From Parcubacteria group bacterium Greene0714_7 (GTDB taxonomy: Bacteria > Patescibacteriota > Minisyncoccia > Phycocordibacterales > Phycocordibacteraceae): a stretch of DNA of 64,000 nt. Below, piece after piece: positions 12,149-61,612 of the stretch. Every line of letters starts with the position of its first letter. Within the stretch, counting starts at the first letter, position 1. The position numbers and the translations under genes are program-made. Location: contig VMHB01000002.1 in the NCBI GenBank assembly GCA_007378985.1, positions 158,273 through 222,272 of the forward strand, in the 5' to 3' direction. Below the pieces are notes generated by a model that saw nothing but the letters and a program-made list of their open reading frames with translations, had not been told where the DNA came from and did not search any database.

Positions 12149-12325
12149 TTTGCATCGAAAACCGCCCTAATAGGACCGTAGGGGTTGAAGTGAGGATAAT
12201 AGGGAGGTAAGCTTCCGAAAGGAGAAGATAGTGAGCCCCGTAAGCATTTTTGTTTCTTGCACAAAAAGCTTTCAGGGCCTTCGCTCGAAGAAAATAAACA
12301 TGCATGTTTGTTTTCCTTCTCGCTC

Positions 12326-12500
12326 GGCCCTGTAGTTTAATGGATAAAACAGGAGACTTCTAAGCTCTTGATCGAGGTTCGATCAGGGGCGTTGGGCGAG
12401 GAATCGAAAGACGGACTGAGGCTTTGCGAAGGAGTCCGGGCAGGAGCCACTTAACGAGTCTGCGAGTTTAGTGAGCTGACGCCGATTCCTCGCGGGGCTA
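12326..12500 (+). tRNA. tRNA-Arg(TCT)-like gene interrupted by ~100-nt insertion within the T-loop (intron or tRNA pseudogene)
   Basis: 5' part folds perfectly: acceptor GGCCCTG, U8, D-stem GTTT/AAAC, anticodon loop CTTCTAA, T-stem 5' CGAGG plus TTCGAT; matching T-loop remainder, T-stem 3' CCTCG and acceptor 3' CGGGGCT-A are found only after 12484; insert 12384..12484 flanked by CGAT direct repeat. Confidence 0.45.
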
Positions 12501-13309: not shown

Positions 13310-13843
13310 TTATTTTTTTAAGCGGTAGTGAAGAAGAATCGCACTCTTTGCGTTGAGTTTTTTTACCGAGACGAGTTCAAATCGTCGTGTGTGTGAGCCG
13401 TTCGAAAACATTGGGATTCCTCGTCCGAAGACCAGTGGTTCTATAGTGACATAGAGCTCATGGAGGAGATTATTGTCGAGCATTGTTTGGTACACTCGCG
13501 CACCACCAACTATGGCGACCGTTTTATACACTGAGAAGAGTTTTTTAAGATTCTGGCATGCCGGATTGACGAAGGTGACTGTGCCTTTTTTGAGCGTATT
13601 TTTTACCCTACTCGATAGCACAAAAGTTGTGCGTTTTTGGAGGCGGCTTTGAGCAGACAGGTACGTATTTCTTCCTACAACAACTACATCAGCATGCGCG
13701 AGTTCGCTCTGGAAGAATTTCCAATCTTCCTTGCTAGTCCAATCAGGAAGCTTCCTTTTTTCAAGTGAGATGCGTCCATCGATGGATGTTGCAACGTAGG
13801 CAACGAAGCGTGTTTTAAACAGAGGCTGGGTCTTTGGTTTCAT
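13310..13843 (-). CDS. RibD C-terminal / dihydrofolate-reductase-like reductase domain protein
   Basis: FVAYVATSIDGRIS...TVAIVGGARVYQTML; listed ORF extends to 13906 but would overlap upstream gene by 92 nt, so internal Met start favoured. Confidence 0.55.
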   Translation of the reverse strand: MKPKTQPLFKTRFVAYVATSIDGRISLEKRKLPDWTSKEDWKFFQSELAHADVVVVGRNTYLSAQSRLQKRTTFVLSSRVKNTLKKGTVTFVNPACQNLKKLFSVYKTVAIVGGARVYQTMLDNNLLHELYVTIEPLVFGRGIPMFSNGSHTRRFELVSVKKLNAKSAILLHYRLKK

Positions 13844-14477
13844 TCTTGTCTTTGAGTAAGCGTATCGCGACGTAGGAGAGTGGAGTATAGAGGAAGCCCA
13901 TAGCAACCTTGTAGAGCCACCAACTAAACATGATGCCTATAAGTGTTGATGTTGAGTACACACCTGTAAATGCAATTACCATGAAGATTACGGTGTCGAG
14001 AAATTGTGACCACACATTTGAGAGTGTTGAACGAAGCCAGAATCCAGACTTCCCTAAGAGCTTTTTGAAGAAGAAGAATGAAATAACATCCTGATATTGA
14101 GCAATAGCGAATGCGACTAGGGATGCGATTGCCATTCTGACGGAAATACCGAAGACCTGGTTGTATCCTTCGCTTACCCAAAGACCTCTTGGAGACCACG
14201 GCATTGCAATTGAAATGAATGAGTACAGGATGAAAAGTGCTGTAGCGATGAATCCTGCAAGTACGAAGAGTTTTGCAACTCGCTTTCCATACACTTCGCC
14301 AATGACATCGGTCATGAGAAATACAACGGGAAAAGAGAAAACAGCAACAGAAAGACCTGTACCAAAAAGGAATGGCATGATCTTAAGTCCGAGAGTGTTT
14401 GCGGCGAAAAGAGATGCAAGATAAATGGCAAGAGCTAAGAGAAGTTTTTTAAGTGATGATTCAGTAAATTGGAGCAT
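13815..14477 (-). CDS. queuosine-precursor transporter YhhQ family (DUF165), paralog 2
   Basis: multi-TM protein with same architecture as 7762..8433 gene (..TDVIGEVYGKRVAK.., ..FLDTVIFMVIAF..). Confidence 0.6.
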   Translation of the reverse strand: MLQFTESSLKKLLLALAIYLASLFAANTLGLKIMPFLFGTGLSVAVFSFPVVFLMTDVIGEVYGKRVAKLFVLAGFIATALFILYSFISIAMPWSPRGLWVSEGYNQVFGISVRMAIASLVAFAIAQYQDVISFFFFKKLLGKSGFWLRSTLSNVWSQFLDTVIFMVIAFTGVYSTSTLIGIMFSWWLYKVAMGFLYTPLSYVAIRLLKDKNETKDPASV

Positions 14478-14635
14478 GGTTCGTTAGTGTTTAGTTAAAA
14501 AATAAAAATAGCAGTATTCCAACTGCCCCAAATGAAAGACCTTAGTTAAACCCAGACCAACTTTTTTTGTGGCGATTATGAATCATAGTGTTTTTATAAA
14601 ACCCATGGTTCTCATAATAGCAAGAAGTTTGCTTC

Positions 14636-14711
14636 TGGTGCGCGGTGAGGGACTTGAACCCCCGACCTTCTCAGTGTAAATGAGTTGCTCTACCAACTGA
14701 GCTAACCGCGC
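14636..14711 (-). tRNA. tRNA-Val (anticodon TAC), CCA encoded
   Basis: reverse complement GCGCGGTTAGCTCAGTTGGTAGAGCAACTCATTTACACTGAGAAGGTCGGGGGTTCAAGTCCCTCACCGCGCACCA folds as canonical cloverleaf. Confidence 0.85.
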
Positions 14712-14996
14712 AAAGTGAGGAAGAGAATGTCCACGCTCTGCGTGAAGGAAGAGGAGGGTATCACATGCTTCATGTGTACGCTCTCTGAACCGCAGCGCGG
14801 GGAGCGTTTCGCTCGCAGCGCATAGTTCATTTCTTCCGAACGCCTGCGTGGGGAGCCTAAGCTCTCCGCGCATTTTTCTGGCAATAACTCCCCAGCTCTA
14901 CTACAGCAAGTGAGGGAGAAAGTGAAAGTCTCTTTCACTTTCTCCCGAACGCCGTTGCAGAAAGCTGTCCGACAGCTTACCAACTGAGCTAATCGC
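14712..14996 (-). ncRNA. tRNA-like 5' fragment (GGCGATTAGCTCAGTTGGTA...) fused to ~260-nt structured region with a 15-bp perfect hairpin; unclassified
   Basis: acceptor/D-arm-like 5' end closely resembling tRNA-Val 5' end but no anticodon arm, T-arm or matching acceptor 3' strand; hairpin GGGAGAAAGTGAAAG-tct-CTTTCACTTTCTCCC at 14914..14946; several long-range complementary segments. Confidence 0.35.
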
Positions 14997-15086
14997 CCGA
15001 ATTGCTCAGAGTACACTAAAAGTTTTTTTATTCCAATCACACATAAGATATTCTTCACCTCTATTTTTTTGTGATACCGTTTTGTT

Positions 15087-15431
15087 ATGAAACTGAGCCT
15101 TAAAACAGCGAGCGTTGTCCTAGGATACATAGGGTCTGTAAGTGCTGTGGTACTGCTATGGCGTGAGTCCTTTATGCTCACACTGACGCTTTTTGTGATT
15201 TCCGCACTGATGCTTGTGGTTCTCAGGAGTAAAAAAATCACGGCGGTCTATGTGTTTGTAGCGCTGTGGGGCCCTCTCACGGAAGCTATCGCAATTGCGA
15301 AAGGAGTATGGCGTTACGAATCGCCAGATTTTTTCGGCCTTCCTCTCTGGCTTCCATTTCTTTGGGGCGCCGCTTCTATTGTCATCACCTATTCGTACGA
15401 GTACCTCTCTCGTTTTAAAGATAAAAAATGA
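15087..15431 (+). CDS. small integral membrane protein (3 TM), hypothetical
   Basis: hydropathy only. Confidence 0.4.
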   Translation: MKLSLKTASVVLGYIGSVSAVVLLWRESFMLTLTLFVISALMLVVLRSKKITAVYVFVALWGPLTEAIAIAKGVWRYESPDFFGLPLWLPFLWGAASIVITYSYEYLSRFKDKK

Positions 15432-17695: not shown

Positions 17696-18397
17696 ATGGG
17701 AAAGCGTGGTCCAAAGCCAAGGCGTAAAAAACCTGTCGAATGGTCTTCTAATCTGGCATACGCCATCGGACTCATTGCTACGGACGGGTCTCTTTCTAAG
17801 AATGGACGGCATATTGAATTAACATCAAAAGATCGGGGGCAGTTGCAAACTTTCATGAGGTGTCTTGATATAGAGGTAAAAATCGGTATCAAAAAAGGTT
17901 ATGCCGATAAAACCGCGAACCGTGTTCAGTTTGGAGATGTGGTTTTTTATGATTTTCTTTTAGAGATTGGGCTTACTCCGAACAAAACTAAGACGATTGG
18001 AGCACTCGATATTCCTGACAAATATTTCTTTGATTTCTTGCGCGGGCATCATGATGGAGATGGGTCTTTTCATTCGTATTGGGATAAGCGTTGGAAATCG
18101 AGTTTCATGTTCTATCTTATTTTTGTGAGTGCAAGTAAGGAACACGTTGATTGGCTTCGTTCCAAACTGGAACGTTTTTTGGATGTACGGGGGCACATTA
18201 CGCACGGGAGAACGGCAACCGTATATCAGCTTAAATATGCGAAGGCTGAGTCTTTAAAAATTATCAAAAACATGTATTATTCCAATACAGTTCCTTGCCT
18301 CAAACGAAAAAGAGTTAAGATTTTTAAGGCTCTTCGTCGTGCAGGGAACTTGACAAAATTTGCCCAGGTGTTGAAACTGGTAGACATTTCACCTTGA
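17696..18397 (+). CDS. LAGLIDADG-family homing endonuclease, free-standing
   Basis: two LAGLIDADG motifs: LAYAIGLIATDGSL and FLRGHHDGDGSF; stop codon TGA lies inside anticodon loop of downstream tRNA-Leu. Confidence 0.75.
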   Translation: MGKRGPKPRRKKPVEWSSNLAYAIGLIATDGSLSKNGRHIELTSKDRGQLQTFMRCLDIEVKIGIKKGYADKTANRVQFGDVVFYDFLLEIGLTPNKTKTIGALDIPDKYFFDFLRGHHDGDGSFHSYWDKRWKSSFMFYLIFVSASKEHVDWLRSKLERFLDVRGHITHGRTATVYQLKYAKAESLKIIKNMYYSNTVPCLKRKRVKIFKALRRAGNLTKFAQVLKLVDISP

Positions 18398-27538: not shown

Positions 27539-28129
27539 GTGAAATACTTCATTGCTCACCTCCTTTCTGGAGATGCAAAACAGTATCATGCGGGACTAAC
27601 TCGCGCGCTTGCATCGAAGTACCGTATCACACCTCTCCACGACAGGATTCCACCGCATATCACCATCAAACCTCCTTTTGAGACTGATGAGGCTGGGATA
27701 CAGGAGGTTGAACGCATCCTCCGTTCATTTGCACACCATGAACGCCCACAACCCCTTGTTGTGAATGGGTTTGGTCGCTTTGGTTTTCGCACTGTGTATA
27801 TGGATATCTACAAGAGTGTGGAAGCAGTGTCCTTAGTGCGTCGTCTAATTCATGCATTGAATACAAATATTACGTGGATGCCAGCATATCCCCTTGAAGG
27901 GAATAAGCTTCATGCATCTGTGGCGCGTTTTTTAAACCGAAAACAATTTCGGCGAATATGGCGCGAACTTCGAGTGCTACGACCTCATTTCGAATCAACT
28001 CTAGACACTATAGTAATTTTGAAGAAAGAAGATCGCGTATGGAAAGTGATGGCCTCGATACCTCTTCGAGGTGAGGCATCAGGATGGGTTGTTGTGGGGC
28101 AAATGTATCGTAAGCAAGTTGAAGTATGA
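27539..28129 (+). CDS. 2H phosphoesterase superfamily protein (LigT/2'-5' RNA ligase-like)
   Basis: two HxT/S motifs: PPHITIKPPF and LHASVARF. Confidence 0.65.
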   Translation: MKYFIAHLLSGDAKQYHAGLTRALASKYRITPLHDRIPPHITIKPPFETDEAGIQEVERILRSFAHHERPQPLVVNGFGRFGFRTVYMDIYKSVEAVSLVRRLIHALNTNITWMPAYPLEGNKLHASVARFLNRKQFRRIWRELRVLRPHFESTLDTIVILKKEDRVWKVMASIPLRGEASGWVVVGQMYRKQVEV

Positions 28130-35163: not shown

Positions 35164-35430
35164 CTAAATCTTACACCCTGTTAAATACGACTTGAGGCGT
35201 GTATATAGAAACATTTTACCATGATGTGTTTTTAAATACTTTTCGCGTCGAATAGCGTCTTTGCGGTCTAAACATGCTTCTGAGTATATAAGTTTGAATG
35301 GTCTGCGTAGCTTTGTCGAAGTCACAGTACCTTTCTTATGTGCCTCAAGTCGTTCTTGCAAGTTTTCTGTGTATCCGGTGTAGAGTTTCCCATCTTTCTC
35401 TGAGAGGAGCACATATATGTACTGAAACAT
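35164..35430 (-). CDS. small GIY-YIG nuclease-domain protein (YhbQ/UPF0213-like)
   Basis: YIYVLLSEKDGKLYTGYTENLQERLEAHKKG GIY-YIG core; ATG at 35430 (listed ORF uses upstream TTG). Confidence 0.7.
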   Translation of the reverse strand: MFQYIYVLLSEKDGKLYTGYTENLQERLEAHKKGTVTSTKLRRPFKLIYSEACLDRKDAIRREKYLKTHHGKMFLYTRLKSYLTGCKI

Positions 35431-35488
35431 ACGCTTGCAAGGATTTAACAGGGTTAACAAAAATATACTCGCTTCGCTCGTTATTTTT

Positions 35489-41788: not shown

Positions 41789-44700
41789 GTGATGAAGTTT
41801 ATGGATGGAGATACTAAAAGCGAACCCGCCAAGCGTGAGGAAGAAATTCTAGCTTTCTGGCAAAGGAACGAGATTTTTGAAAAAACCCTTTCCAAAGAGG
41901 CTCCAAAAGGGGAGTTTGTTTTTTATGATGGACCACCATTCGCTACTGGCTTGCCACATTACGGCCACATCCTCGCAGGCACCATTAAGGATGCTATTCC
42001 TCGTTACAAAACGATGCAAGGTTACCATGTGCCACGCCGTTGGGGTTGGGACTGCCACGGATTACCCTTAGAAAATCAAATAGAGAAAGAACTTGGTCTT
42101 GCAACGAAACGAGATATTGAAACTCTAGGGGTTGCAACATTTAATGAAGCCGCCCGCAAAGCCGTGCTTCGGTATTCGGATGACTGGAAGTCCATTATTC
42201 CTCGCTTCGGTAGATGGGTGGATATGGAGAATGACTATCGAACAATGGATGCAACGTACACGGAATCCGTGTGGTGGGCATTCAAGGATCTTCATAAGAA
42301 AGGTTTGGTGTATGAAGGATTTAAAGCAATGCACCTTTGTCCTCGCTGTGGCACCACGCTCTCTAACTTTGAAGTAGCGCAAGGGTACAAAGACATCACT
42401 GATATTTCTGTCACCGTAAAACTTGAGCTTGTTGATGAACCTGGAACATTTCTACTTGCATGGACAACTACGCCATGGACTTTGCCTGGAAACATGGCGG
42501 CTGCGGTGAACGCTGAATTTACGTATGTAAAGATTTCAGCGGGGAATGAAAAATATATTCTCGCTAAAGACAGGTTGGAAGTAATTAAAGTTGACTACAA
42601 AATAGAGAAAGAATTTCTTGGTAGTGAACTTGTTGGTAAATCATACAAGCCTCCGTTCTCGTATTTCGCTGATCACAATATCAAAGGAAAAGAAAAAGCG
42701 TGGAAGGTGTATCACGCTCCATATGTGACGATGGATAGTGGAACAGGCTTAGTACATCTTGCCCCTGCATTTGGTGCCGAAGATTTGGAGCTCGCGCAAA
42801 AAGAGGGAATCCCGATAGTGCACCACGTCGACAAGGACGGTTTTTTTGTTGATGCTGTTTCAGATTTTAAAGGACTTCAGGCAAAGCCAAAAGACGACCC
42901 ACAATCAACTGATGTTGCAGTTATTAAATATCTTGCAGGGAAGGGCTTGTTGTTTGCAAAAGAAAAAATTATACACTCGTATCCGCATTGTTGGCGATGT
43001 GATACGCCGCTTTTAAATTACGCATCATCATCGTGGTTTGTAGAGGTGACAAAATTCAAAGACAAAATCGTAGCTGAAAATAAAAAAATAAACTGGGTAC
43101 CAAAAGAAGTGGGGGATAAGAGGTTTGGAAACTGGCTTTTAAACGCTAGAGATTGGGCAATTTCACGTGCTCGGTACTGGGGTGCACCAATTCCTGTATG
43201 GCGCAATCACAAAACGAAAGAGAATGTATTCATTGGCTCGCTAGATGAGCTGAAATCGTACACGAAAAAATCTGGTAACAAGTATTTCACCATGCGTCAT
43301 GGGGAGAGTACAAAGAATGTCGCTGGTATAATTCGATCTCGTTTGGAAGATGACGATATACATCTTACTGAGAAAGGTAGAGCAGAGGCACTGGCTTCTG
43401 CAAATGCCTTTAAACATTCAGAAATAAATCGCATCGTAGTTTCTCCTTTTATTCGCGCCAAGGAAACAGCTGAAATTGCTCGGGAGGTTTTTGGTCTTCC
43501 GAAGAGTTCAGTTTCATATGATGAGCGACTTATTGAGTATAGGCACGGTACTTTTGATAGGAAGCCAGAAAGATCATTCTGGGATCATTATGTGACTTCT
43601 GCTAATGCATATGAGGTAGGCCCCGAGAGTGGTGAAAGTGCGCGGGAGATGGGGGCACGTATGGCTGAAGTATTGTATGAGCTTGAACAAAAATATAAAG
43701 GAGAGAACATTCTTATCGTCTCCCACGAATGGCCGCTACTTGCCCTCACTGCTCTTGCTCACGGATATTCTAAAGAAAGAACAGTCCGTATCCTCAATAA
43801 AATAGAAGACCATATTCAGCCAGGAGAAATTCGTGAACTTCCATTTGTCCCACTTCCGCACAACGAAAACTTTGAGCTTGATTACCATCGCCCATATATC
43901 GATGAGGTAGTGCTTATAGACACCGATGGCACGAGGCTTGAGCGTGTACACGATGTTTTTGATTGCTGGTTTGAATCGGGCTCAATGTCGTATGCTCAGA
44001 ATCATTATCCATTTGAAAACAAAAATAAGTTTGATCCGAAGCCGGGGTGGCTCAAGAAGTCCCGTGGCTACCCAGCGGATTTTATTGCTGAAGGATTAGA
44101 TCAAACAAGAGGTTGGTTTTATTCGCTCCTTGTCTTGGGGGTGGGGCTTTTCGGCAAAGCAACCTATAAGAATGTAATTGTGAACGGAATTGTTTTGGCA
44201 GAAGACGGGCAAAAGATGTCGAAGCGTTTGAAAAATTATCCTGACCCACTCACTGTGCTCGAAAAATACGGCGCAGATGCTATCCGCTATTACCTCCTTG
44301 CGTCACCTTTAATGAAGGCAGAAGATTTAAATTTTTCAGAGAAGGGAGTGGGAGAAGTCGCGTCGAAACTCATCGGACGATTTTTGAATGTCGTCTCTTT
44401 CTATGAGCTCTATAAAGACTTGGAGCACGGAGTGTCTCCAAGTTCTCACCCTCTCGATAGATGGATTTTTTCACGATTGAATCAAGTTATTGGAGAAGTT
44501 GAGAAGGGAATGGAATCCTATGAGCTCGATAAGGCAACGCGCCCACTTACTCTTTTTGTGGACGATTTGTCGACATGGTATCTCAGGCGTTCTCGCGATC
44601 GCTTTAAAGAGGAAGGGGCTGACGCAAGAGACGCACTTCAAACACTTCGTAGCGTTATAGAAATTTTTGCAAAAATATCAGCACCTTTCATGCCGTTTGT

Positions 44701-45277
44701 CGCCGAAAGCGCCTACCAGAGAGTGAAAACTAAAGACATGCCAGAGAGCGTGCATTTGTGTGAGTGGCCACGCACGGGTTCTACTGACGCACCACTTCAA
44801 GAAGCAATGGTGGAAGTCAGGCGCATTGCATCGCGAGGGCTCGAAGCGAGGCAGAAGGTGGATATAAAAGTGAGACAACCACTTGCAAAAATAACAGTGA
44901 ATAGTGAACTGTTAGCAGGAAGAGTAGAGCTTCTGCAATTAATAAAAGATGAGCTCAATGTGAAGGAGGTTGTCATCGACGGAGTGCTATCGAAAGATGA
45001 AGCGATACTTGATACTGATATTTCAGATGAGTTGAAAGAGGAAGGTAATGTGCGCGAAGTAATTCGCTTTATTCAAGAGCTTCGCAAAGAGGCAGGACTT
45101 ACACCAAAAGAGACGGCAACATTGGTGTTTGTTCAGAGTGATGACATAGAGAAGTTTTTAGAAAAGCATTGGCATACTCTCAGTACTGCCACCAGACTCT
45201 CATCAAGAGAATTAGGTAATGGTACAAATGAATTGGTGTTTGATGGAATGACATTTAGGTTCAATGTCCGTTCGTGA
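41789..45277 (+). CDS. ileS: isoleucyl-tRNA synthetase (type 2, eukaryote-like) with embedded histidine phosphatase (PGAM-family) domain
   Basis: PPFATGLPHYGHIL (HIGH), TTPWTLPGN editing motif, KMSKRLKN; between ...GAPIPVW...LKSYTKKSG and ...VHDVFDCWFESGSM lies ~200 aa with RHGESTKN and ...ILIVSHEWPL... phosphoglycerate-mutase-type catalytic motifs (approx nt 43278..43876). Confidence 0.85.
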   Translation: MMKFMDGDTKSEPAKREEEILAFWQRNEIFEKTLSKEAPKGEFVFYDGPPFATGLPHYGHILAGTIKDAIPRYKTMQGYHVPRRWGWDCHGLPLENQIEKELGLATKRDIETLGVATFNEAARKAVLRYSDDWKSIIPRFGRWVDMENDYRTMDATYTESVWWAFKDLHKKGLVYEGFKAMHLCPRCGTTLSNFEVAQGYKDITDISVTVKLELVDEPGTFLLAWTTTPWTLPGNMAAAVNAEFTYVKISAGNEKYILAKDRLEVIKVDYKIEKEFLGSELVGKSYKPPFSYFADHNIKGKEKAWKVYHAPYVTMDSGTGLVHLAPAFGAEDLELAQKEGIPIVHHVDKDGFFVDAVSDFKGLQAKPKDDPQSTDVAVIKYLAGKGLLFAKEKIIHSYPHCWRCDTPLLNYASSSWFVEVTKFKDKIVAENKKINWVPKEVGDKRFGNWLLNARDWAISRARYWGAPIPVWRNHKTKENVFIGSLDELKSYTKKSGNKYFTMRHGESTKNVAGIIRSRLEDDDIHLTEKGRAEALASANAFKHSEINRIVVSPFIRAKETAEIAREVFGLPKSSVSYDERLIEYRHGTFDRKPERSFWDHYVTSANAYEVGPESGESAREMGARMAEVLYELEQKYKGENILIVSHEWPLLALTALAHGYSKERTVRILNKIEDHIQPGEIRELPFVPLPHNENFELDYHRPYIDEVVLIDTDGTRLERVHDVFDCWFESGSMSYAQNHYPFENKNKFDPKPGWLKKSRGYPADFIAEGLDQTRGWFYSLLVLGVGLFGKATYKNVIVNGIVLAEDGQKMSKRLKNYPDPLTVLEKYGADAIRYYLLASPLMKAEDLNFSEKGVGEVASKLIGRFLNVVSFYELYKDLEHGVSPSSHPLDRWIFSRLNQVIGEVEKGMESYELDKATRPLTLFVDDLSTWYLRRSRDRFKEEGADARDALQTLRSVIEIFAKISAPFMPFVAESAYQRVKTKDMPESVHLCEWPRTGSTDAPLQEAMVEVRRIASRGLEARQKVDIKVRQPLAKITVNSELLAGRVELLQLIKDELNVKEVVIDGVLSKDEAILDTDISDELKEEGNVREVIRFIQELRKEAGLTPKETATLVFVQSDDIEKFLEKHWHTLSTATRLSSRELGNGTNELVFDGMTFRFNVRS

Positions 45278-60978: not shown

Positions 60979-61612
60979 CTATAGACAGCAACAAACCCGG
61001 AAACGGGCTTTTTGTTGTCTATGTTGTCCACATATACAAACCCTCTGTTCTAATATGTAGAACGGGGCGGGCACGTATAATAAGTGAACTCCCGTGCTGG
61101 GTGTTCGGTTGCGCGTTGTTGTGGCGCGCTTCCGGTCGAACAGAACTTTGACATCCTTCATATCCGGAATACATCTCAAGCGTGCGCCTCGGTTTCGTTG
61201 TAATAAATGAAGCATGCGTACATCACTGTAAGGAAGCACTATCCCACCACGGCTATATCCTGCATGACCATTTTTTCTTCTTACCATTGGTCCCGTACAC
61301 ATTAGAAATAATGTGAACGGGTTGATGGAATTTAGTTGTGCTGTCTTTTGAACCAACTCTAGAAAATTTTTCTAGCTGAGGTACACAAGACAGAAAATTA
61401 GTTGTTCTTTCTGCCCTGCGAGCGAAGTCCAAAGAAATTCTATTTCCTTGGATGAGCGAGCAATGACAGAAAGGACGACTCTTAGTCGTACTTATTAACA
61501 GGTATGCGGCGGGTCGTGAGTTATTCGGTCGAACGAATGATTTGCGTCCACGCACCCGCACCACTGATTCTCGCGTTTTATTTAATTCAAGCGTGAATGA
61601 GTGTGGCGTCAA
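60979..61612 (-). pseudogene. two overlapping frame-shifted minus-strand ORFs of low complexity; possible decayed gene/mobile remnant
   Basis: ORFs 61253..61612 and 60979..61356 overlap out of frame; no motif recognised; ~800-nt region otherwise lacks plus-strand coding. Confidence 0.2.

What the first reader, a model, noticed from the sequence alone, without database searches (positions are those of the whole stretch)
14712..14996. tRNA-like 5' fragment joined to a ~260-nt highly structured segment immediately upstream of tRNA-Val
On the minus strand the region begins GGCGATTAGCTCAGTTGGTA, nearly identical to the 5' end of the adjacent tRNA-Val, but lacks an anticodon arm, T-arm and matching acceptor 3' strand. 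It continues into a segment containing a 15-bp perfect hairpin with a triloop (14914..14946) and a direct repeat GGCGTTCGGRAGAAA(G)TGAA. It also contains several long-range complementary stretches (GCGCGGAGAGC with GCTCCCCGCGC, and GAGCG-AAA-CGCTC). No protein-coding signal is evident. It could be a novel structured ncRNA co-transcribed with tRNA-Val, a processed tRNA-derived element, or a partial gene duplication.
Basis: seen in the sequence. Interest (0 to 1): 0.5.

Follow-up and report, generated by a model that had tools for sequence, protein, structure and literature searches.

The report
tRNA-gene-invading palindromic repeat in Patescibacteria
The odd stretch in front of tRNA-Val is the stump of an older tRNA-Val gene copy followed by two to three copies of a small, conserved, hairpin-rich repeat that recurs at tRNA genes in these tiny-genome bacteria and is in none of the libraries or papers I could search.

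Summary
The window comes from a Patescibacteria (Paceibacterota) genome. The 21-nt "tRNA-like" start (14998-14978, minus strand) matches the first 21 nt of an intact tRNA-Val. That tRNA sits directly behind the same promoter region in two close relatives (L003, L004).

After it comes a 77-nt three-helix element, which I call X1 (14977-14901), inserted at D-loop position 20/21. Next is a short remnant (14900-14873). Then comes a second, degenerate X1 (14872-14713) with a 98-nt insert in its long hairpin. A close relative (L098) lacks this second copy, which is flanked by a 7-nt direct repeat.

X1 is a family:
- About 20 copies were found at Val, Thr, Lys, Ala, Ile, Arg, Asp and Met tRNA genes.
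- Covariation is strong: 26 of 31 pairs change on both sides.
- The motifs CTTTCT, CGYTCGG and CCTCGCTT are conserved.
- There is no Rfam, phage or plasmid match.
- At least four copies lie in this window.

In the second context class, X1's closing helix pairs an internal "anti-acceptor" with the acceptor 5' strand of the adjacent intact tRNA.

Best reading (0.5): a non-autonomous palindromic insertion or repeat element acting at the DNA level, co-transcribed as pre-tRNA leader. Main rival (0.25): a functional leader RNA. The mobilising enzyme and the functional strand are unresolved.

The parts
15008..15036 (-). Promoter-like TTGGAA-17 nt-TACTCT, preceded by TG, ending about 10 nt upstream of the tRNA-like start. 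It is the only candidate promoter for the whole unit.
   Evidence: Read. The tool's strict consensus scan found none. GTGTACTCT is conserved in L002, L003, L004 and L098, and also in the more distant L005. This is an inference, not a demonstration.
14978..14998 (-). Orphan 5' fragment: positions 1-21 (acceptor 5' strand, D-stem 5' strand, D-loop) of an 'A-type' tRNA-Val(TAC).
   Evidence: Identical to the first 21 nt of the intact tRNA-Val that follows the same promoter in L003 and L004.
14901..14977 (-). X1a, a complete copy of the X1 element. P1 is 14978-14972 paired with 14968-14962. CTTTCT follows. P2 is 14960-14954 paired with 14907-14901. CGTTCGG follows. P3 is the 15-bp perfect hairpin at 14946-14914. 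CCTCACTT follows.
   Evidence: Best hit of both covariance models (104 and 97 bits). Coordinates were read.
14873..14900 (-). Remnant of the invaded tRNA copy: TAGAGC (tRNA positions 20-25), then TGGGGAGTT-ATTGCCA-GAAAAA. ATTGCCA may be the decayed acceptor 3' strand ATCGCCCA.
   Evidence: TAGAGC follows X1 in all D-loop-type copies. The match of ATTGCC to the acceptor comes from the MFE pairing and comparison with L003; it is an inference.
14713..14872 (-). X1b, a second, degenerate 'acceptor-type' X1. It has a left acceptor copy TGCGCGG (14872-14866). A left hairpin ends in the anti-acceptor CCACGCA (14851-14845). GGCGTTCGG and the P3 base run to 14828. A 98-nt insert (14827-14730) itself contains a third partial X1-like copy. 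P3 3' strand plus CCTCACTT occupies 14729-14713. The helix closes on the real acceptor (14712-14706).
   Evidence: Absent from L098, where the empty site reads AAAAATGCGCGG|TTAGCTC. The covariance model aligns positions 24-83 with a 98-nt loop insert, local E = 5.7e-4.
14636..14711 (-). Functional 'B-type' tRNA-Val(TAC). Its acceptor 5' strand forms the 3' side of X1b's closing helix.
   Evidence: ARAGORN and Rfam tRNA, 70.1 bits.
3622..3705 (+). Acceptor-type X1 copy directly upstream of tRNA-Arg(GCG). It has a left copy GCTCTTG-TA, an anti-acceptor CAAGAGC and the real acceptor GCTCTTG.
   Evidence: Covariance model hits of 24.9 and 33.2 bits. Sequence. Conserved in L112 and L113.
12237..12338 (+). 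Acceptor-type X1 copy at the 5' end of the tRNA-Arg(TCT) body.
   Evidence: Covariance model hits of 42.8 and 61.4 bits. Sequence.
61404..61494 (-). X1 copy with no recognisable tRNA next to it.
   Evidence: Covariance model hit of about 26 bits. No tRNA or Rfam hit nearby.

Best explanation
The region is a layered scar at a tRNA gene, produced by a family of small (about 80 nt) palindromic repeat elements that I call X1. X1 is a family label of mine, not a published name. These elements occur in some Patescibacteria and sit in or against tRNA genes.

What is shown:
1. An older tRNA-Val copy was interrupted in its D-loop, after position 21, by X1a. Only its first 21 nt and a few later nucleotides survive.
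2. A second X1 (X1b) lies directly against the 5' end of the functional tRNA-Val. X1b carries a further nested insert. It is present or absent between near-identical genomes, flanked by a 7-nt direct repeat.
3. X1 has three helices that are kept by compensatory changes, and three conserved unpaired motifs.
4. In the acceptor-type copies an internal 7-nt segment is complementary to the tRNA's acceptor 5' strand. A further direct copy of that strand lies upstream, giving a direct-inverted-direct pattern.

What is inferred:
- X1 behaves as a non-autonomous, MITE- or REP-like DNA element.
- It spreads among tRNA genes that share the D-arm GCTCAGTTGGTAGAGC, or to tRNA 5' ends. The route would be an unidentified trans-acting enzyme, or homologous replacement of whole tRNA cassettes.
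- Its hairpin arms, and the direct-inverted-direct copies of tRNA ends, would be made and kept perfect by template switching at hairpins.
- The whole stack is transcribed from the single upstream promoter as a long 5' leader and removed when RNase P cuts at the mature tRNA-Val 5' end. It is therefore tolerated rather than needed.
For: Evidence at this locus:
- L003 and L004 (neighbouring Vut protein 98% and 97% identical) have the same promoter followed directly by an intact tRNA-Val, whose first 21 nt equal the orphan fragment.
- L098 has X1a but not the 160-nt X1b.
- L002 has both, with an extra 31-nt deletion and a 1-nt deletion in the 'perfect' hairpin.

Evidence for a family:
- L059 and 13 metagenome loci carry the same architecture at Val, Thr, Lys, Ala and Ile tRNAs.
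- The covariance model finds 20 copies at E < 1e-4.
- 87.5% of cells are paired against 64.4% in shuffles. 26 of 31 pairs change on both sides. The covariation score is 0.576 against 0.175 shuffled and 0.08-0.11 for slid partners.

Evidence for repeat-like behaviour:
- Four to five copies lie in this 64-kb window.
- Some copies lie away from any tRNA (window 61404, L030, L058, L105:2599).
- Copies occur in tandem and nested.
- Copies on different tRNAs of one lineage are the most alike: window-Val and L105-Ile are 77% identical, L088-Lys and L103-Val 70%.
- Short-read contigs from one sample (L001, L111) end exactly at the X1/tRNA boundary.

Evidence for action at the DNA level:
- G-U pairs are few (17 of 567 cells) and no more common than A-C mismatches (22).
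- The antisense strand folds at least as well as the sense strand, in 14 of 19 copies.
- Loops are mostly triloops, and helices are near-perfect within each copy.

Evidence for co-transcription: only 4 nt (L109) or 23 nt (L098) separate the unit from the functional tRNA.
Against: - No transposase, integrase or HUH/RAYT-type gene was found among about 60 ORFs of the window, so the mobilising activity is unknown.
- The ends are not classical terminal inverted repeats.
- The flanking duplications are inconsistent: TA, 7 nt or 9 nt.
- The three unpaired motifs and a 2x2 UC/UC internal loop are conserved across divergent lineages, and always in the same orientation relative to the tRNA. A functional RNA would show the same.
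- The complementarity to the acceptor strand is 6-7 of 7 in five different tRNAs. It needs either guide-like targeting or templated synthesis, and neither is demonstrated.
- The invaded copy lies upstream of the intact one in all but one family (L089). Simple 'insertion into one of two tandem copies' does not predict that.
- The presence/absence differences could be explained by homologous allele replacement alone.
Confidence: 0.5

Rival explanations
1. X1 is a functional cis-acting pre-tRNA leader RNA. The anti-acceptor segment can pair either with the upstream acceptor copy or with the real acceptor strand. This gives a two-state fold that controls tRNA folding or processing by RNase P or RNase III. 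Alternatively, it offers a protein-binding hairpin (the UC/UC loop) next to the cleavage site.
For: - Orientation is fixed, and the element lies directly against the mature 5' end through the conserved CCTC(A/G)CT(T/C).
- Covariation is strong in all helices.
- Unpaired motifs are conserved.
- The three-part anti-anti / anti / acceptor arrangement is perfect at window tRNA-Arg(GCG): GCTCTTG-T-AAGC-ATA-GCTT-T-CAAGAGC ... GCTCTTG.
- Co-transcription is forced by the short spacers.
- The Arg(GCG) copy has only one substitution in L112 and L113.
Against: - Close relatives do without it: L003 and L004 have no X1 at tRNA-Val, and L098 lacks X1b.
- L002 carries a 31-nt deletion and a bulge in the hairpin.
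- Most tRNA genes in the 80 related loci have no X1; only 4 of those loci gave a hit.
- The D-loop-type copies sit in dead tRNA fragments, and some copies have no tRNA at all.
- There is no sense-strand G-U excess.
Confidence: 0.25
2. The fragments are attachment-site scars of site-specific integrative elements (integrase-mediated) that entered tRNA genes carrying a replacement tRNA end. X1, and the 3'-side element I call Y, are the surviving arm regions after the cargo was deleted.
For: - Partial tRNA duplications flank the insert.
- On the 3' side the layout is the classical one: intact tRNA, then the element, then a duplicated 3' fragment. This is seen in L059, L088, L104, L105 and L098, and at window tRNA-Arg(GCG).
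- Outer leader and trailer sequences pair with each other, as do inner leader and trailer (L085, L104).
Against: - No locus shows any cargo or integrase between X1 and the intact tRNA. The spacers are 4-75 nt in all 14 loci.
- Known tRNA-targeting integrases duplicate the 3' part of the tRNA, not the 5' part (my knowledge of Williams 2002, not tested here).
- In this window the orphan (GGGCGAT) and the intact tRNA (GCGCGGT/ACCGCGC) are different alleles over their whole length, so the intact gene is not a host/element chimera.
- An arm-site scar does not explain the covariation.
Confidence: 0.1
3. X1 is released or expressed as an independent small RNA, on either strand, that acts in trans. 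One possibility is an antisense or guide RNA against tRNA acceptor strands, or a partner of an unknown protein.
For: - Some copies stand alone (window 61404-61494, L030, L058).
- The antisense strand folds slightly better and would carry tandem G-A pairs.
- A terminator-like hairpin plus T-run lies on the plus strand at 14845-14872.
Against: - No promoter or terminator is defined for a separate transcript.
- The plus-strand 'terminator' is simply the left hairpin of X1b.
- Copy content varies among near-identical genomes.
Confidence: 0.08
4. Random decay of a tandem tRNA-Val duplication, with chance hairpins.
For: The 5' fragment and a possible decayed acceptor 3' strand (ATTGCCA) suggest a former full copy.
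Against: The inserted sequence is homologous, with compensatory changes, to elements at other tRNAs in distant genomes. z = -5.15.
Confidence: 0.02

Closest known systems
Bacterial MITEs that are co-transcribed and fold as long hairpins (Correia/CREE of Neisseria, RUP, ERIC)
   Same: - Size of about 80-160 nt, largely palindromic and non-coding.
- Several copies per genome, sometimes nested.
- Present or absent between close strains.
- Flanked in many copies by TA...TA.
- Transcribed with the neighbouring gene.
   Different: - The X1 ends are not classical terminal inverted repeats.
- Insertion is tied to two defined tRNA positions (8/9-10 and 20/21-22) or to the tRNA 5' end.
- The closing helix uses the tRNA's own acceptor strand.
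- Arm sequences differ freely between copies while the pairing is kept.
- No cognate transposase is known.
REP/BIME palindromes with a GTAG tag, mobilised by RAYT (Y1 HUH) transposases (e.g. PMC3733652, title and abstract seen)
   Same: - Short imperfect palindromes with a conserved mismatch or bulge.
- A GTAG tetranucleotide lies at the junction (...AG|TAG...).
- Structure-specific recognition is plausible.
   Different: - X1 is larger, with two hairpins and an internal loop.
- It is linked to tRNA genes rather than being generally extragenic.
- No RAYT was seen in the window.
- The GTAG here is part of the tRNA sequence itself.
Integrase-mediated integration into tRNA genes, with partial tRNA duplications (genomic islands, prophages, tycheposons)
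   Same: An intact tRNA plus a displaced tRNA fragment as a direct repeat. The 3'-side Y cassettes look like the classical layout.
   Different: - Here the 5' part is duplicated.
- The insert is only about 100-270 nt, with no genes.
- The insert is a structured repeat with covariation.
Group I introns in tRNA genes of Patescibacteria (PMC13011429)
   Same: - Same phylum.
- Insertions into tRNA genes that make standard tRNA finders fail.
- One related locus (L082) has such an intron in the anticodon loop next to an X1.
   Different: - X1 is about 80 nt, with no group I core and no Rfam hit.
- It sits in the D-loop or at the 5' end, not in the anticodon loop.
- The invaded copies lack the rest of the tRNA, so splicing could not restore a tRNA.
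- That paper reports only one D-loop insertion, a group II intron in another phylum.
Archaeal non-canonical tRNA introns at D-loop positions, and split tRNAs
   Same: The insertion lies at D-loop position 20/21, and tRNA pieces are separated in the genome.
   Different: - This is a bacterium.
- No matching 3' half was found.
- A complete tRNA-Val lies next to it.

Membership tests
Known Rfam RNA families (RNase P, tmRNA, SRP, 6S, group I intron, self-cleaving ribozymes, riboswitches) | Covariance-model score at or near the family's gathering threshold | tested here: not met
   The whole window at gathering threshold gave only 5 tRNAs. Positions 14500-15200 at E <= 10 gave only the tRNA and chance miRNA-type hits on the hairpin.
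Functional tRNA | Complete cloverleaf with anticodon arm, T-arm and a matching acceptor 3' strand | tested here: not met
   ARAGORN and Infernal find nothing in 14712-14998. The A-type 3' end is absent from the window.
MITE (non-autonomous DNA transposon) | Multiple dispersed copies in one genome | tested here: met
   Four confident copies plus one degenerate copy in 64 kb. Two copies lie on one contig of a relative (L098 and L105).
MITE (non-autonomous DNA transposon) | Presence/absence polymorphism with an intact empty site | tested here: met
   For X1b, L098 has the empty site AAAAATGCGCGG|TTAGCTC, against the filled site in the window and L002. L003 and L004 have no X1 at all.
MITE (non-autonomous DNA transposon) | Terminal inverted repeats and a target-site duplication of fixed length | tested here: inconclusive
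   The element is palindromic internally (P2/P3), but its 5' end is a separate hairpin (P1). The flanking direct repeats are TA, 7 nt or 9 nt, depending on the copy.
MITE (non-autonomous DNA transposon) | A related autonomous element or transposase in the genome | tested here: inconclusive
   None among about 60 window ORFs. The rest of the genome is not available.
REP/RAYT system | 20-40-nt palindrome with a GTAG or CGTC head, high copy number, and a RAYT gene | tested here: inconclusive
   GTAG is present at the 3' junction, but it comes from the tRNA. The element is larger than a REP. No Y1 transposase domain was found in the window.
Integrase-type tRNA attachment-site scar | Direct repeat of the tRNA 3' part flanking an element that encodes, or once encoded, an integrase | tested here: not met
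   The 5' part is the one repeated. Between the repeats there are only 100-270 nt and no ORF, in all 14 loci.
Group I intron in tRNA | A P3-P9 catalytic core of about 200 nt or more, inserted in the anticodon loop so that splicing gives a tRNA | tested here: not met
   No Intron_gpI hit. The element is 77 nt. It lies in the D-loop, and the downstream exon is missing.
Structured RNA under selection (generic) | Compensatory base changes beyond controls | tested here: met
   0 of 500 shuffles reach any observed measure, and slid-partner controls are 5-7 times lower. Caveat: the alignment was fitted to the model, and DNA palindrome correction could give the same result.
Structured RNA under selection (generic) | Strand asymmetry: an excess of G-U over A-C on the transcribed strand | tested here: inconclusive
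   G-U 17 against A-C 22 on the model alignment. In MFE folds, G-U is 28 on the sense strand and 18 on the antisense, but the antisense is more stable in 14 of 19 copies.

The most novel reading that the evidence does not exclude
X1, and its 3'-side counterpart Y, would be a new class of base-pairing-directed elements that home to tRNA genes. An internal 7-nt 'guide' (the anti-acceptor, or anti-T-arm in Y) would select or copy the tRNA end. The element would bring or regenerate a replacement tRNA end, so that the essential gene survives invasion. Alternatively, the same three-part complementarity would be a true RNA switch that gates tRNA maturation in Patescibacteria.
Probability: 0.22. Interest if true: 0.85.

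Novelty: new variant of a known kind. Interest (0 to 1): 0.62.

Why it matters
- Genome annotation. Patescibacteria have tiny genomes with mostly single-copy tRNA genes. Here three of the six tRNA loci in one 64-kb window (counting the interrupted tRNA-Arg(TCT) that ARAGORN misses) carry these elements, and one tRNA gene goes undetected by standard tools because of them. A covariance model for X1 would improve tRNA annotation and completeness checks in this phylum.
- Mechanism. The complementarity of the element to the acceptor strand, and the direct-inverted-direct copies of tRNA ends, point to one of two things. One is an undescribed targeting mechanism. The other is hairpin-driven template switching acting as a major mutational force at tRNA genes.
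- tRNA evolution. The data also show whole tRNA alleles being swapped between genomes that are 97-99% identical in neighbouring proteins. This bears on how essential tRNA genes evolve in reduced genomes.

Tried and rejected
- Chlamydiae origin. I suspected this from a folate-ligase hit. It was rejected: all close relatives are Patescibacteria MAGs.
- Split or trans-spliced tRNA. No A-type 3' half is present in the window.
- Known RNA families. No Rfam hit at gathering threshold or at E <= 10, nor around the stand-alone copy.
- Phage or plasmid origin. There was no blastn match. The D-loop pattern is absent from viral contigs. A loose core pattern gave 120 or more chance hits, of which the model kept only one borderline hit, L161.
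- Transposase or integrase in the window. None was found.
- Strand of function. G-U against A-C counts and sense against antisense folding energy were both inconclusive.
- Conserved pairing of the orphan 5' strand with ATTGCC as a mini-tRNA. Other family members have no such 3' partner.
- Literature. Six full-text searches and two papers read found no description of this element. Absence from that library is not proof that it is unpublished.
- Failed calls.

Full report
**Names used here.** X1 is my label for the roughly 80-nt repeat element found here, and Y is my label for its 3'-side counterpart. X1a, X1b and X1c are the copies at this locus. A-type and B-type are my labels for two tRNA-Val alleles with different acceptor stems.

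**Observation.** On the minus strand the region reads GGGCGATTAGCTCAGTTGGTA (14998-14978), followed by about 266 nt and then a complete tRNA-Val(TAC) at 14711-14636.
- The 15-nt TTAGCTCAGTTGGTA is shared exactly with tRNA-Val.
- The 15-bp perfect hairpin at 14914-14946, the direct repeat GGCGTTCGGRAGAAA and the other stems exist as described.
- The stretch folds far better than shuffles (-123.5 kcal/mol, z = -5.15).
- Rfam gives nothing at gathering threshold or at E <= 10. ARAGORN sees no tRNA or tmRNA there.

**Source and local context.** The neighbouring queuosine-precursor transporter (Vut_1, 13815-14477) is 93-99% identical to proteins of Paceibacterota/Patescibacteria MAGs. The window is therefore a CPR genome. 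A divergent gene starts at 15087. The only promoter-like sequence for the minus-strand unit is TTGGAA-17-TACTCT at 15036-15008, and its GTGTACTCT is conserved in relatives. This is my reading; the strict consensus scan found none.

**The 5' fragment is a remnant.** In L003 and L004 (Vut 98% and 97% identical) the same promoter region is followed directly by an intact tRNA-Val(TAC). It reads GGGCGATTAGCTCAGTTGGTAGAGCGCTTCATTTACACTGAAGATGTCGCAGGTTCAAGTCCTGCATCGCCCA.
- Its first 21 nt equal the orphan fragment.
- The window's functional tRNA-Val has a different acceptor stem (GCGCGGT/ACCGCGC). It resembles the allele of the more distant L005 and L027, together with about 19 nt of trailer.
- The A-type 3' half is nowhere in the window.
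- After the insert come TAGAGC (tRNA positions 20-25) and ...ATTGCCA. The latter may be the decayed acceptor 3' strand, which would explain the long-range pairing in the MFE fold.

**The insert is layered and polymorphic.** L098, a close relative from a 316-kb metagenome contig, has the orphan, an 83-nt element plus a 23-nt spacer, and then the tRNA. It lacks the 160-nt segment 14872-14713, which in the window and in L002 is bounded by the 7-nt direct repeat TGCGCGG. L002 additionally has a 31-nt deletion and a 1-nt deletion that breaks the 'perfect' hairpin. These indels also rule out coding.

**A conserved family.**
- L059 (Vut 69% identical) carries, upstream of its own tRNA-Val, a 5' fragment followed by a homologous segment. 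In it both hairpins differ in sequence but keep their pairing.
- A pattern scan of metagenome contigs for the junction (GCTCAGYTGGTAAG...CTTTCT) returned 13 true instances among 29 hits. They lie at Val-GAC, Thr-GGT/TGT/CGT, Lys-CTT, Ala-TGC/CGC and Ile-GAT genes.
- All have the same layout. tRNA positions 1-21 come first. Then AG-P1-CTT-T-[P2 5' strand]-CGYTCGG-[P3 long hairpin]-CCTCGCTT-[P2 3' strand ending in AG]. Then TAGAGC plus a variable amount of the tRNA, from nothing up to the whole 3' part. Then a 4-75-nt spacer and an intact copy of the same tRNA.
- In L089 the intact copy lies upstream instead.
- A covariance model built from four copies finds all of these and more.
- On 20 hits, 87.5% of cells pair (64.4% shuffled) and 26 of 31 pairs show double changes. 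The covariation score is 0.576 against 0.175 shuffled (0 of 500 shuffles reach it) and 0.08-0.11 for slid partners.
- Caveat: that alignment was fitted to the model.

**Second context class.** The model also hits copies that abut intact tRNAs:
- window 3622-3705 before tRNA-Arg(GCG);
- window 12237-12338 before the tRNA-Arg(TCT) body;
- L100 before tRNA-Asp and tRNA-Met;
- copies preceding the orphan fragments in L100 and L101.

In these copies the P2 3' strand is the real acceptor 5' strand. The P2 5' strand is its complement, matching 6-7 of 7 positions in five different tRNAs. A further direct copy of the acceptor, usually followed by TA, lies just upstream, where it can pair with the anti-acceptor instead. 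CCTC(A/G)CT(T/C) directly precedes the mature 5' end.

Segment 14872-14713 of the finding is exactly such a copy (X1b). It consists of:
- the left copy TGCGCGG;
- the hairpin AGAGC-TTAG-GCTCC;
- the anti-acceptor CCACGCA (CCGCGCA in L002);
- GGCGTTCGG;
- the base of P3;
- a 98-nt insert;
- CATTCTCTTCC-TCACTT;
- the real acceptor TGCGCGG.

The model aligns it at local E = 5.7e-4. The 98-nt insert repeats the X1b left part (GCTCCCCGCGCTGCGGTTCAGA against GCTCCCCACGCAGGCGTTCGGA, D3, D6). I read it as a nested third partial copy (X1c); this is my inference.

**How common it is.**
- With filters off, the window holds four confident X1 copies plus X1b.
- One copy (61404-61494) has no tRNA or Rfam feature beside it. 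L030, L058 and L105:2599 likewise.
- Among the 80 loci fetched through Vut, only four have X1, so the family is restricted to certain lineages.
- Copies on different tRNAs of one lineage are the most similar non-orthologous pairs. Window-Val and L105-Ile are 77% identical. L088-Lys and L103-Val are 70% identical and share a spacer.
- Two short-read contigs from sample SRR8863435 end exactly at the tRNA/X1 boundary. That would fit population heterogeneity.

**RNA or DNA?**
- Co-transcription is all but forced by the short spacers.
- Strand-specific signatures are lacking. G-U counts 17 against A-C 22 on the model alignment. The antisense strand folds better in 14 of 19 copies (p = 0.005), partly because the conserved UC/UC loop becomes tandem G-A.
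- Loops are mostly triloops, and helices within a copy are nearly perfect.
- These features fit DNA palindromes at least as well as a selected RNA.
- Against that, the three unpaired motifs and the 2x2 loop are conserved in a fixed orientation. This calls for sequence- and structure-specific recognition by something.

**The 3' side mirrors the 5' side.** Downstream of many of these tRNAs lies a second element, Y. Its layout is: intact tRNA and terminator, then an inverted copy of the T-arm or 3' end, then a structured core, then a direct duplicate of the tRNA 3' fragment.
- It is seen in L059, L088, L104, L105, L098 and L002, and at window 3803-3980 after tRNA-Arg(GCG).
- Both tRNA ends thus show a direct-inverted-direct pattern. 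This is what template switching at hairpins would produce; that link is an inference from general knowledge of quasi-palindrome mutagenesis.

**Mechanism I commit to (confidence 0.5).** X1 is a non-autonomous palindromic repeat element that enters tRNA genes at ...GTA|G sites (positions 8/9-10 and 20/21-22) or at their 5' ends.
- Invasion of an essential gene is survivable only where an intact copy remains or is supplied. This explains the invariable neighbouring intact tRNA.
- The stack is transcribed as leader and discarded by RNase P.
- Spread may use an unknown enzyme. None lies in the window, although free-standing LAGLIDADG and GIY-YIG genes are present. Spread may instead be by homologous exchange of whole tRNA cassettes, for which the A/B allele swap at this locus and at tRNA-Arg(TCT) is direct evidence.

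**Rivals.**
- A true regulatory or processing leader RNA (0.25).
- Integrase attachment-site scars (0.1).
- A trans-acting small RNA (0.08).
- Random decay (0.02).

**Comparison with known systems.**
- X1 works most like co-transcribed bacterial MITEs and REP-type palindromes. It fails or leaves open their defining tests: terminal repeats, a fixed target duplication and a cognate transposase.
- It is not a group I intron. The recent survey of introns in Patescibacteria tRNA genes reports no such element (PMC13011429).
- It is not a classical integrase scar.
- It is in no Rfam family.
- I found no description in six literature searches.
- I therefore rate it a new variant of a known kind. There is a minority chance (about 0.2) that the acceptor complementarity reflects a new guide-directed or switch mechanism.

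Noticed in passing
window 12190-12500 (+): A tRNA-Arg(TCT) gene that ARAGORN and Rfam miss. AGCCCCG-TA and an X1 copy precede the body GGCCCTGTAGTTTAATGG...CGAGGTTCGAT. A roughly 100-nt Y element (12385-12487) then sits in the T-loop before GATTCCTCGCGGGGCTA. Compared with L098, 56 nt are missing (the tRNA 3' end plus terminator). No intact copy lies nearby. L002-L005 carry a different, intact tRNA-Arg(TCT) allele at the same place. It could be a pseudogene, an assembly variant or a tRNA with a removable T-loop insert; this is unresolved.
   Followed up: partly
window 3766-3980 (+): Downstream of tRNA-Arg(GCG) the order is as follows. First a terminator. Then an inverted copy of the last 22 nt of the tRNA, split by a hairpin (TGTGCTCTCG-AGGATGTCTGGGAGACATCCGT-GCAGGAATCGAA). 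Then a core. Then a direct duplicate of the tRNA 3' fragment (ATTCCTGCCGAGAGCGCAATTA) with its own second terminator. The same cassette type follows tRNAs in L002, L059, L088, L098, L104 and L105.
   Followed up: partly
window 61404-61494 (-): An X1 copy (26 bits) in an intergenic region upstream of a small ORF, with no tRNA or Rfam feature nearby. The flanks contain tRNA-like snippets (CCTCAG...AGTTGGTTC).
   Followed up: partly
window 17696-18397 (+) and 35164-35460 (-): Free-standing homing-endonuclease-like genes. A 233-aa LAGLIDADG_3 protein abuts tRNA-Leu(GAG) and is absent from the syntenic L059. A 98-aa GIY-YIG protein lies between thymidylate synthase and dCTP deaminase. Both are candidate drivers of local gene conversion.
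   Followed up: no
window 13815-14477 (-) and 7762-8499 (-); loci L002-L081: Both Vut_1 (queuosine-precursor transporter) genes of the window lie directly downstream of a tRNA gene (Val, Ser). In many of the 80 related loci a tRNA or tmRNA gene sits just upstream of the Vut gene.
   Followed up: no
window 41789-45277 (+): The isoleucyl/valyl-type class I tRNA synthetase (1162 aa) carries an inserted histidine-phosphatase (His_Phos_1) domain at residues 502-665.
   Followed up: no
window 27539-28129 (+): A LigT-like 2'-5' RNA ligase / 2H phosphoesterase gene. It may be worth remembering if any of the tRNA insertions turn out to be removed from RNA.
   Followed up: no
L082 2530-2310 (-), i.e. 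region positions 274-530: The 'intact' tRNA-Thr(GGT) behind an X1 copy is itself interrupted after the anticodon (CCATGGT|GGGTCGCAGACC...). The interruption is about 190 nt before AAGGCGCAGGTCGTCGGTTCAATCC. It is probably a group I intron of the kind described for Patescibacteria.
   Followed up: no
L001 (1-20) and L111 (3293): Two Logan contigs from run SRR8863435 that match the window end exactly at the 5' end of tRNA-Val and of tRNA-Arg(GCG). That is the X1/tRNA boundary, which suggests assembly-graph branching from population variation there.
   Followed up: no
L161 4012-4094 (+): One contig labelled viral (IMGVR_UViG_3300028797_000282) has a borderline X1-like element (24.8 bits), containing GCGCTCGG-hairpin-CCCTCGCTT, with no tRNA nearby.
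   Followed up: partly
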